A stretch of 64,000 nucleotides of DNA, from NCBI RefSeq assembly GCF_033153115.1, contig NW_026889811.1, positions 3,906,001 to 3,970,000 of the forward strand, read 5' to 3'. Below are positions 7,001 through 56,250 of this stretch, piece after piece (positions within the stretch are counted from its first letter, which is position 1; the number at the start of each line of letters is the position of its first letter). The notes under the pieces were generated by a model. The model was not told the origin of the DNA. It saw only the letters and a program-made list of their open reading frames with translations, and did no database searches. The stretch is from Saccostrea echinata (lineage: Eukaryota). The position numbers and the translations under genes were made by a program.

Positions 7001-10000
7001 ATGAATATCAGCAAGAAATCCGCTAAGAAGACATTCCATGTTGATGAGTCAGACTTGCTCTGTAAAAATGGTTGTGGTTTCTATGGTAATCCAGCATGGC
7101 AGGGATTCTGTTCTAAATGTTACAGAGAGGTTTACCAGGCAGCAAAGCAGGCCCAGGCCCAACATGATGAACAGAAAACTAGGTGAGGGGAATTCTGGGG
7201 GGGAGAGGGCATTATCAGGTAGACCCAGGCACAACATGATGAACAGAAAACTAGGTGAGGACACAGAAATTAGCAGTCATGAGAGGAATTCTGGGGGATT
7301 GGTGCTACCAGGTAGACCAGGCATGACATAATGAACATAAATCTAGGCGAGGACACAACATTTAGCAGTGGTGAGAGAAGTTCTGGGGGAGGGGGGTTAT
7401 CAGGTAGACTCCGGCTTAAAATGATAATCAGAGAACTAACTGAGAACACAGTTGTAGTAATAAATGTCGGAAAAAGCAGGCCCAAGAAAACTAAGTAAAA
7501 TCAAAAAAGTAAGCAGTGGGTGAGGGATAGGAGGAGCAGGCCCAGGCTAAATGTCAGAAAAACCGGACGGAAACTGGGGAAAAGTGGTGTATTTTTTTGT
7601 ATGTGTATGGTGATGGTGGTTGGTGGGGGTTGGGGGGGGGGTAACAGGTTAGGTGAGGTAAGGCCCAGGATCAGCATAATTAGAAATCCAGGTGAGAATG
7701 TAACAATAATATACAAACTTATATACAAGTTTTAGACATACACTTTGAAGCAGAGATGATTTTATATATATTTAAAAGGGCAATAGTTAATTGTTTCATT
7801 GAATGACTTGAGATTATTGATTATGATTTATCTTAACATATAATTATGCACCTATTAAAGATACAGTTGAACTTTGGTATCTCGAACACCGATATCTCGA
7901 ATACCATGGATATGTCAAGTGATTTTGAAGTCCCAACCACTTATTCTTAAAGTATTTTACCCTCGATATCTCAAATCCTCAGATATCTCAAAGTTTTTTC
8001 TTGGTCCCATCGAGTTCGAGATAACGAGGTTTGACTGTACTTCAAATACAACGAAGTATTAAATGTTTCCATTCAGACTACAAAAGGAGAACAGATATTC
8101 AACCTCTTATAGTCGTGCTACACTTGAAACTTATGTACAGTATTTTCTAGCTTTATTGTGAAGAGATTAAAATATTATTGTATTTAGTGCAAATGAAATA
8201 ATACTTGGCATTGCTTTCACATAGTACATTGACCTCATACAGCTAGGTTATGAATATAACTGTATTAATTGTGTAGAAGAACATTGAACTTAATCTAAGG
8301 AGTAACAATATTGTATTTTTATTACATACTGCATTATAATATACTTTATGATTTCGTGAGTAAAGGGATTGTTTCTAGAGACACGAAGACGTTGACACCA
8401 CAAAGCCATTTAACATCACTTCTTCAGCACTCCTTGTTATTTTCACCCTCAGTCATTCGTTAACACCTAGAGATGATTTTTATACTTGATGGTTAAAAAC
8501 AAAATTTCTCTAACAATGGTTTTTTTTTTTTTCATGTTTAAAGTTCATTTAGAGGATAAACAAGAGTGACAACTTTTACCTAAGTTAATTTTTGTTAGGA
8601 ATTTTTTTCACAAAAAATCAGATGTGTGTTGAAAGATTGGGGTAGAAAGATAGAGTACATAGAGCCATTAAACACCCAAATAGCTTTACTATATGTATTA
8701 TTGCAACTGGCTCACCTTAGCCAAAGGTCTCTCCCTACCCCAGGGGGTAGGGAGAGGTCACAATTGGATATTAAAGTTATACGTAGGAGTATATAGGAAA
8801 AATCATTAAAACTCTTCTTTTCAAGAACAGAAAAGCCATGATTAGTCATATTGATTTAGAAGCATCCTTAGGTAGTGTAGATTCAAGAGTGTTCAAATCA
8901 TGCCCCCTGCCCCCACTTTTATATTTTAACTTTTCAATACTGAACTGATTTCTGCTTTTCCTTGCCGAAGTTCTCAGGTGAGCAATGAGGCCGATGGGCA
9001 GCTTGTTTTTGTGATGCTGTACCATCTTTCTCATCTATGAGAATGATATCAGTATCTGAGTTTACAATGATTACATGGCTTGTTTAAAATTTACAAACTA
9101 TAAATATACTTTATTTAATAAATATATTAATTTCACAAAATGAAGTGATTATGAAACCCAGACCAATAAGTTTGAATTCCACAATTTTACATTCATAAGA
9201 TTTTAAAATGTATTTGTTTTGGAGTATTGAGTAGAATTGGCAGAATAAAAAAAATATTAGAAATTTGAATTTTTTTTTTCTAATTCCCCAGAAATTAGGG
9301 TCAGCATCCTAGAAATTAAAAAAACAAAACACAAAAAAAAAACCCCTGTGGCTTTAATTCTGCAGCTGGACTTATGCATTGCAACTTTTTTCACTTGAGC
9401 TGCATTCCCTAAAGTTATAGTGCACTATTTTAAAGTGTCAGTCACACCCAGAATGATCACATATATAACTGAACACATCACTCATACTAATAAATTTAAG
9501 ATTTATAGGCATATTGTAACAATGTCAGACCAGTCAGCCTTATTATTAGATTTGGTGAATAGTGAGTCAAGTAGACCAACTTCACACATTCAGATGATTA
9601 GATCAATATTAAGATTTGTAACAGAGGCTGATGAAGGAAGACAGATGTTACACACTGTGACTCATGGGCTGGGTTAAATGTTCACAGGGTTAACAAGGTG
9701 TAGGTCACAGGTGTCTACTCAGACTGCTATTTGTTTATGTATACCTTGATATCTAGTATGGAGAGGGTACTTCTTACTCTTTCCAGCCAGATTTTCTGAT
9801 TGTTCATTATCATAAGATTCGTAATATAGATATTAGTTTTGTACCTTTGAGTGACACATAGCAGATACTAGTAAACCATGGTTTTATCAGGTACACATGC
9901 CTGTATTAGTCTCTTGATTCTTCTGTTTACTCCGCCAATATAGCTAGATACACATCTTCTGTGTCCTTTTTTTGGTTAGTGTATGTCCTGGTATATCATG

Positions 10001-55104: not shown

Positions 55105-56250
55105 GTGAGGCTAGTTTTGTTACTTAAATGACTTGGATAGAATAGCTGTGGTTCAATTACATTAGATGGATCTAGTAAAGGTTAAAGGAAAGAGATGGTT
55201 TATTTATTTAGGTGTTTTATTGGGGTTGAATGGTCAGATTTCTGTTCAATAGCTTAAATGAGATGTATTACGTCTAGAATAGACAGAGGTAGGCGTTAAT
55301 TCATTACTTAAAGGTGATGTATTAGGGAAGAGTGGACAGAGGTAGACATTAATTCATTACTTAAAAGTGATGTATTAGGGAAGAGTGCACAGAGGTAGAC
55401 AGACATAAATTCATTACTTAAATGTAATGAATTAGGGAAGAGTAGACAAAGGTAGGCGTTAATTCATTACTTAAAGGTGATGTATTAGGGAAGAGTGGAC
55501 AGAGGTAGACATTAATTCATTACTTAAAAGTGATGTATTAGGGAAGAGTAGACAAAGGTAGGCGTTAATTCATTACTTAAAAGTGATATATTAGGGAAGA
55601 GTAGACAAAGGTAGGCATTAATTGATTACTTAAAGGTGATGTATTAGGGAAGAGTGGACAGAGGTAGACACTAATTCATTACTTAAAAGTGATGTATTAG
55701 GGAAGAGTAGACAAAGGTAGGCTTTAATTCATTACTTAAAAGTGATATATTAGGGAAGAGTAGACAAAGGTAGGTGTTAAATGATTACTTAAAGGTGATG
55801 TATTAGGGAAGAGTGGACAAAGGTAGACATTAATTCATTACTTAAATGTGATGTATTAGGGAAGGGTAGACAAAGGTAGGCGTTAATTCATTACTTAAAA
55901 GTGATATACAATGTATTAGGGAAGAGTAGACAAAGGTAGATGTTAATTGATTACTTAAAGGTGATGTATTAGGGAAGAGTGGACAGAGGTAGACATTAAT
56001 TCAATACTTAAATGTGATGTATTAGGGAAGAGTAGACAAAGGTAGGCTTTAATTCATTACTTAAAAGTGATATATTAGGGAAGAGTAGGCAAAGGTAGGT
56101 GTTAATTGAATACTTGAAGGTGATGTATTTGGGAAGAGTGGACAGAGGTAGACATTAATTCATTACTGAAATGTGATGTACTTGGGAGGACAGGGATATG
56201 AGTGGTTCTATTACTTTAAAGGGTTCTTTGAGGTTTGAGTAGGAAGAAGT
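55105..56250. repeat. ~54-bp minisatellite after GH10 exon 6
   Basis: About 17 copies of GGGAAGAGTGGACAGAGGTAGACATTAATTCATTACTTAAAAGTGATGTATTA. Confidence 0.95.

What the first reader, a model, noticed from the sequence alone, without database searches (positions are those of the whole stretch)
7183..56250. Intronic minisatellites repeatedly seeded from splice junctions (six cases in three genes)
Seen: most non-transposon tandem arrays here abut an exon, and their units copy the junction. RABGEF1 7183 (AAAACTAG|GTGAGG), RABGEF1 11552 (ACCAAAG|GTAATA), RABGEF1 acceptor 17339, PSTPIP-like exon 8 (GCTTGTAAT|GTAATT), PSTPIP-like exon 6 (GCCAAG|GTAC) and GH10 exon 6 (GAGTGGACAGAG|GT). Inference: either a mutational process preferentially amplifies exon-intron boundaries into the intron, or selection removes all expansions except those preserving the exon. 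Either way, arrays of decoy splice sites result that the spliceosome must ignore or can recruit.
Basis: partly seen in the sequence, partly recalled or inferred. Interest (0 to 1): 0.7.

Follow-up and report, generated by a model that had tools for sequence, protein, structure and literature searches.

The report
Oyster splice-junction "mirage" repeats favour donors
Short DNA pieces that straddle exon borders have been copied head-to-tail into the introns of three oyster genes, a repeat type already known from lancelets and humans that splicing likely ignores, and in a wider sample of this genome they sit at exon ends about two to three times more often than intron background predicts.

Summary
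Five donors (two in RABGEF1, two in a PSTPIP-like gene, one in a GH10 gene) are echoed 3-29 times in the next intron. The acceptor case copies mostly the intron side, with weak decoys. The GH10 copy is likely a pseudogene, and its array re-amplified from older decoys that its paralogue shares. These are 'mirage' minisatellites, known from amphioxus and human F7/CBS. This scan found them before in this genome (parkin, pyruvate carboxylase) and in others. The transcript contigs and protein models checked use the exon-proximal site. The new part is the count. In 94 other gene regions, 32 of 878 donors carry such an array, against 10.1 expected (3.2x, bootstrap 1.8-5.2). Counting transposon-borne arrays lowers this to 2.1x, and GC-matching to 1.7x. 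Only 13 of 881 acceptors carry one (1.3x). Plain TRF shows 1.3x overall, with the excess confined to 30-59 bp units. Decoy GTs are not eroded, and breakpoints do not sit at the junction. Best reading: ordinary repeat birth and expansion, favoured by GC-richer exon ends and protection from deletion, then filtered by splice-site choice. A splicing-coupled mutational bias is not excluded.

The parts
6989..7182 (+). RABGEF1 first coding exon (A20 zinc finger); real donor after 7182
   Evidence: Pfam zf-A20; RefSeq P0014; spliced contigs 5233->6989/6992 stopping at 7183 in 4 runs
7147..7451 (+). Donor-spanning array 1: last 36 nt of exon plus intron head, 72-92 bp units
11433..11551 (+). RABGEF1 exon; real donor after 11551
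11512..11784 (+). Donor-spanning array 2: nested 24/43/69 bp units, 5 GT decoys
17037..17339 (+). Acceptor-adjacent 34-bp array (8.7 copies); weak decoy AGs without T tract
17340..17564 (+). RABGEF1 exon following the acceptor array
39256..40577 (-). PSTPIP-like exon 8 donor array: 36-bp unit (27 copies) grading into a decayed 33/27-bp part; 23 GT decoys
40572..40651 (-). PSTPIP-like exon 8; weak real donor (score 3.1)
41811..43168 (-). PSTPIP-like exon 6 donor echo: 3 decoys (96-106 bp units), interrupted by a dispersed-repeat insertion of about 1 kb
43128..43232 (-). PSTPIP-like exon 6
54942..55104 (+). GH10a exon (fifth in my model), carrying a 4-bp insertion relative to its paralogue (frameshift)
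55093..56194 (+). GH10a donor echo: decayed units, then a 53-bp array of 17.5 copies (55245-56187) absent from the paralogue

Best explanation
These are 'mirage' minisatellites: tandem copies of DNA straddling a splice junction, likely expanded by ordinary slippage and unequal exchange, and likely tolerated because splicing uses the exon-proximal site (seen in every transcript contig and protein model checked). Shown: the copies, their local origin from the adjacent junction, length differences between near-identical gene duplicates, and a 2-3x excess at donors. Inferred: the excess likely arises because GC-richer exon-end DNA seeds or expands arrays more readily, and because an array pinned to an exon is hard to delete whole and keeps an intact, selection-frozen first unit. 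Acceptor-spanning copies are likely purged more often, since an upstream duplicate 3' site can be met first.
For: Class and tolerance: PMC3087553 and PMC1557585 describe the same anatomy, with the authentic site used alone or mainly. Contigs in 4 of 4 runs stop at the proximal donor, with no cover at 7262-7837. PSTPIP proteins use proximal donors in 11 of 11. Use of the first decoy would frameshift or add a stop in 26 of 26 scorable arrays (6 of 32 had no scorable decoy). Dynamics: myosin duplicates at 98.9% exon identity differ in array length, e.g. -21..49 against -21..143 and 52..659 against 52..233. Similarity to the exon falls with distance in 11 of 14 arrays (Wilcoxon P=0.002). The GH10 paralogue lacks the 53-bp array but has older decoys. 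Excess: 32 of 878 donors against 10.1; discovery set 22 of 470 (3.9x), dynein replicate 10 of 408 (2.4x, P=0.01). Composition-blind scoring gives 2.5-3.1x. GC: deep-intron array starts are about 4x denser in windows of GC>=0.44, and GC-matching raises the expectation to 18.8. Near-exon protection: intron-side arrays are at 1.2x (donor) and 1.9x (acceptor). Asymmetry 32:13 (P=0.007).
Against: GC and protection do not fully account for donors: 1.7x remains after GC-matching (P=0.0035), more after allowing for unit length, and spanning arrays exceed intron-side ones 2.6x (bootstrap 1.6-5.2). Junction arrays are not more decayed than deep ones (identity 0.88 against 0.87), and the excess is largest in near-identical (12 against 1.0) and >=3-copy arrays (20 against 1.9), which a pure persistence model does not obviously predict. 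Surviving acceptor arrays often keep decoys as strong as the real site, so purging is not absolute. The GC effect rests on 19 deep arrays, some possibly undetected mobile DNA. Families differ: kinesin 13 of 189, SNF 1 of 103.
Confidence: 0.6

Rival explanations
1. Transcription- or splicing-coupled mutagenesis (polymerase pausing or R-loops near the 5' splice site in the germ line) raises the birth or expansion rate of 30-60 bp duplications specifically across donors.
For: The donor excess survives GC-matching. It is strongest in young-looking and multi-copy arrays, confined to 30-59 bp units (22 against 2.5-3.9; TRF 15 against 2.2-3.8), and 2.5x the acceptor count.
Against: No breakpoint clustering at the junction. 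No link to CpG depletion as a germline-methylation proxy (20 of 553 against 12 of 325). No G-skew difference (P=0.43). Multi-copy acceptor arrays are also enriched (9 against 1.9). The 'young' measure is biased by the conserved exon copy.
Confidence: 0.2
2. The excess is mostly a product of my baseline and exon calling; true enrichment is near 1x and the arrays are only what neutral duplication plus exon protection leaves.
For: Unstratified TRF gives 20 against 15.6-17.9 (1.1-1.3x, not significant). Without kinesins and with dispersed arrays counted the excess is 1.5x (P=0.06). Dynein against all arrays is 1.4x (not significant). Exons came from my own caller.
Against: The TRF baseline is dominated by 10-29 bp units that can rarely span a junction; allowing for this gives 20 against 5.8-7.6. 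The region bootstrap lower bound is 1.23 even against all arrays. False exons would tend to dilute the signal, and calls inside arrays were removed.
Confidence: 0.15
3. Decoy donors are positively retained as extra U1 binding sites or as an NMD-coupled splicing switch.
For: Decoy GT is kept at 0.91 against 0.855 for other positions, the first decoy GT is intact in 20 of 25, and the best decoy equals or beats the real donor in 19 of 25.
Against: The difference is small and explained by unit edges (neighbouring core positions 0.80-0.94). Arrays differ between near-identical duplicates, the largest GH10 array is in a likely pseudogene, and no decoy use was seen.
Confidence: 0.04
4. The arrays are assembly artefacts.
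For: No DNA reads were laid on the arrays.
Against: Copies are 68-92% alike with graded decay, one echo is split by an insertion, and decayed units are shared with a paralogue.
Confidence: 0.01

Closest known systems
Amphioxus 'mirage' minisatellites (Adh3, globins BflGb6/BflGb9: PMC3087553, passages of abstract and section 16 read; PGBD5 and troponin C: PMC3902484, passages)
   Same: Tandem repeats spanning exon-intron boundaries at either end; many keep GT/AG; length-unstable; concerted evolution; regular splicing undisturbed; mechanism called unclear there.
   Different: Here a bivalve, with a counted frequency (3.6% of donors, 1.5% of acceptors) and a background test; the passages read give single-gene cases only.
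Human F7 IVS7 37-bp VNTR, and CBS, LMNB2, PDGF and IFI6 (6-16) minisatellites (PMC1557585, passages of abstract, introduction and discussion)
   Same: First unit spans the donor and identical pseudo-sites follow; in F7, LMNB2 and PDGF only the authentic site is used.
   Different: CBS and 6-16 use two pseudo-sites as well; none was seen here, on limited data. Units here carry more exon (median 55% of the unit) than F7 (4 of 37 nt).
Intron gain from tandem duplication (Rogers model; PMC2812944 passages; PMC4974935 search listing only)
   Same: Tandem repeats at exon-intron boundaries.
   Different: 0 of 45 junction-spanning arrays span both ends of an intron, so these decorate existing introns rather than form them.

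Membership tests
Mirage minisatellite | Tandem repeat whose terminal unit spans an exon-intron boundary | tested here: met
   5 donor cases; GH10 only through decayed units
Mirage minisatellite | Same, for the RABGEF1 acceptor case | tested here: inconclusive
   Array ends 9 nt before the exon; 10-11 of 16 match across the junction
Mirage minisatellite | Copies retain GT/AG splice signals | tested here: met
   3 of 5, 5 of 6, 23 of 29, 3 of 3 and 17 of 17 donor copies
Mirage minisatellite | Authentic site used in mRNA | tested here: met
   one donor, 4 runs, contigs only; protein models; not tested for GH10a; rare decoy use is not visible in contigs
Mirage minisatellite | Copy-number instability | tested here: inconclusive
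   Shown between paralogues or duplicates (GH10a/b, myosin C5/C36), not between alleles of the six sites
Mirage minisatellite | Somatic instability (Adh3) | not testable with these tools
   No raw DNA reads were listed for the stretch searched
Transposon-borne satellite (160-170 bp arrays of this window) | Unit dispersed at unrelated loci | tested here: not met
   Dispersed fraction 0.0 for all six arrays against 0.97-1.0 for the 161/166/168-bp arrays, within the sequence held
Intron gain by tandem duplication | Repeat fills the intron and echoes both ends | tested here: not met
   0 of 45 in the sample; none of the window arrays reaches the far junction

The most novel reading that the evidence does not exclude
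Exon ends at 5' splice sites are germline hotspots where a transcription- or splicing-coupled process creates and expands 30-60 bp duplications. That would make splice donors a main nursery of non-transposon minisatellites in this oyster (junction-spanning arrays hold 16.6 of 33.7 kb of such repeat DNA counted) and a steady source of intron growth and latent alternative donors.
Probability: 0.2. Interest if true: 0.75.

Novelty: new member of a known kind. Interest (0 to 1): 0.38.

Why it matters
The six cases are ordinary members of a known class. The useful addition is a measured, controlled frequency with a donor bias. I did not find such a count in print in nine full-text searches or in one search of the scan's notes; three key older papers could not be read. 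It makes the open question of how mirages arise testable with one annotated genome and population long reads. It also offers many natural tests of proximal 5' site choice: 3.6% of donors in the sample. For annotation, such arrays produce false exons: my own caller made several.

Tried and rejected
Ab initio exon calling without homology gave many false exons and was used only at high score in the 200-kb flanks (3 of 14 donors with arrays). It was not pooled. The first per-base test was inflated by exons called inside arrays and was replaced by an array-level test. p450 loci (24 of 30 used; 4 of 104 donors) are recent paralogues with almost no deep intron, so they were kept out of the pooled count. 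Three duplicate regions were dropped (myosin C19, myosin C36:1790001, SNF C62). The first dispersed-repeat mask used too loose a duplicate rule and was rebuilt. Methylation proxy, G-skew and exon length showed no association. Intron length without the array gave 1 of 100 below 120 nt and 3-6% above, which is only suggestive. No listed run is on record as RNA and no raw reads were listed, so decoy-use rates could not be measured; only the 7182 donor was covered by laid contigs. Pfam did not recognise single PSTPIP exons except a weak SH3; identity came. Canestro 2002, Zhuo 2007 and Gao and Lynch 2009 are not held and were seen only as references; they may bear on novelty. No supplements were read. 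No other animal genome was available for comparison.

Full report
SETTING. The window is G000:C62:3906001-3970000 of a 923-Mb assembly. It holds RABGEF1 (+), an LTR retrotransposon, a PSTPIP-like F-BAR/SH3 gene (-), a TRIM-like gene and tandem GH10 genes. Protein records labelled Saccostrea echinata match the queried RABGEF1 and PSTPIP exons at 100%. Their sequences confirm my exon junctions at the five array sites in these two genes.

OBSERVATION. Five donor echoes are real. They have 5, 6, 29, 3 and 17 downstream copies, most with GT and many scoring as high as the true donor. The acceptor array at 17037-17330 copies the intron side and lacks the T tract, so it is a weak case. None of the six units is dispersed elsewhere in the sequence held, unlike the 161-168 bp satellites. 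In the three genes' introns, 5 of 9 non-dispersed arrays span a donor against 0.6-0.7 expected (post hoc). At 5 of 29 donors, the window is a rich draw from a genome rate near 3.6% (P=0.004).

GH10. The copy with the array has a 4-bp insertion in the exon before the array and an AG-to-AA change at a later acceptor, relative to the neighbouring paralogue. An oyster orthologue aligns to that exon in two frames. It is likely a pseudogene (inference). The paralogue lacks the 53-bp array (67 bp against 985 bp between aligned blocks) but carries decayed junction-like units in the same intron. The echo is therefore older than the gene duplication and was re-amplified in one copy.

SPLICING. Contigs from 4 runs (3 studies; RNA status guessed, but spliced) join 5233 to 6989/6992 and stop at 7183, with no cover at 7262-7837. 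All 11 aligned PSTPIP proteins (RefSeq and Logan, three species labels) use the proximal donors. Contigs drop rare forms, and decoy products would mostly be nonsense (26 of 26 scorable first decoys give a frameshift or stop). Low-level decoy use is therefore not excluded.

GENOME TEST, METHOD. I located myosin, kinesin, SNF and dynein genes by Pfam search of G000 and fetched them. Exons were called by homology plus a splice and coding model. Before phase was enforced, 320 of 426 neighbouring exons were phase-compatible. Local direct repeats were found by a diagonal scan; at the threshold used it gave 2 false hits per 200 kb of shuffled DNA. Three duplicate regions and exons called inside arrays were dropped, and p450 loci were kept apart. 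That left 94 regions, 878 donors, 881 acceptors and 355 kb of non-dispersed deep intron.

GENOME TEST, RESULT. Arrays starting 4-60 nt inside the exon and crossing the donor numbered 32, against 10.1 expected (3.2x) or 15.0 when dispersed arrays are in the baseline (2.1x). Acceptors gave 13 against 10.2 or 15.1. The discovery set gave 22 of 470; the dynein replicate gave 10 of 408 (2.4x, P=0.01; 1.4x and not significant against all arrays). By family: kinesin 13 of 189, myosin 8 of 178, SNF 1 of 103. Region bootstrap: 3.2 (1.8-5.2), 2.1 (1.2-3.4), acceptor 1.2 (0.4-2.6), donor/acceptor 2.6 (1.3-7.0). Without kinesin the excess is 2.1x (P=0.002) or 1.5x (P=0.06). Composition-blind scoring gave 2.5-3.1x, or 1.8-2.2x against all arrays.

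AGAINST AND RECONCILIATION. Plain TRF showed no significant excess: 20 against 15.6-17.9 for donors and 10 against 15.7-17.9 for acceptors. Splitting by period shows why. TRF's baseline is mostly 10-29 bp units that can seldom span a junction. For 30-59 bp units, TRF finds 15 donor-spanning arrays against 3.8, and my scan 22 against 3.9. With a span-eligible expectation the totals are 20 against 5.8-7.6 (TRF) and 32 against 6.3-10.9 (my scan). Acceptors are then 1.2-2.4x. This split was made after seeing the TRF result.

MECHANISM CLUES. Starts are spread from -60 to -5. Donor-like motifs in deep introns do not seed arrays. No array spans both ends of an intron. Deep-intron arrays are about 4x denser in GC-rich windows; GC-matching gives 32 against 18.8 for donors and 13 against 16.5 for acceptors. 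Intron-side arrays next to exons are 1.2-1.9x. Junction arrays have more copies (4.0 against 2.2) but the same identity; at >=3 copies there are 20 donors and 9 acceptors against 1.9. Decoy GTs are not eroded (0.91 against 0.855). There is no link to CpG depletion or G-skew. Similarity to the exon falls with distance. Near-identical duplicates differ in array length.

READING. Selection alone can only remove exon-internal duplications; it cannot lift junction arrays above intron background (inference). I therefore favour ordinary repeat birth and expansion, biased towards GC-richer exon-end DNA and prolonged by anchoring to an exon. Proximal-donor use makes donor copies harmless, and upstream acceptor copies are more often purged (0.6). 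A donor-coupled mutational process remains possible (0.2), as does a baseline effect (0.15).

KNOWN KIND. The anatomy is that of amphioxus 'mirages' (PMC3087553; PMC3902484; passages) and of human F7, CBS, LMNB2, PDGF and 6-16 minisatellites (PMC1557585; passages). The name 'mirage' reached me through earlier scan notes and was checked in those papers. The scan has reported single cases in this genome and in others. I found no genome-scale enrichment count in the searches listed, but could not read three key papers. Verdict: new members of a known kind, with a modest new quantitative result; interest 0.38.

Noticed in passing
window 50558-58509: The GH10a copy is likely a pseudogene (4-bp exonic insertion near 55008; acceptor AG to AA near 56623); at least three GH10 paralogues lie in tandem, continuing beyond the window.
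   Followed up: partly
window 12712-12846 (+): Alternative first coding exon of RABGEF1 (RefSeq isoform X2, also in Magallana gigas) giving a protein without the A20 zinc finger.
   Followed up: no
window about 19790-28260: Gypsy-type LTR retrotransposon on the minus strand with near-identical long terminal repeats and a long gag-pol frame (22932-27032), inserted into a dispersed element.
   Followed up: no
window 50751 and 56521 (+): Two GH10 introns appear to start with GC rather than GT, also in the paralogue.
   Followed up: no
window 37859-37927 and beyond 36879 (-): The PSTPIP-like gene has a cassette exon and short isoforms lacking the SH3 end, shared with Ostrea edulis.
   Followed up: no
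L161-L162 (G000:C9:8079001-8099000) and G000:C12:5309001-5329000: One myosin gene has four acceptor-spanning arrays and one donor array, and one dynein gene has four donor arrays; some genes may be hot spots.
   Followed up: no
window 46622-50069 and 58713-60807: A TRIM-like gene and a decayed duplicate lie in tandem with the GH10 copies, suggesting a duplicated TRIM+GH10 block.
   Followed up: no
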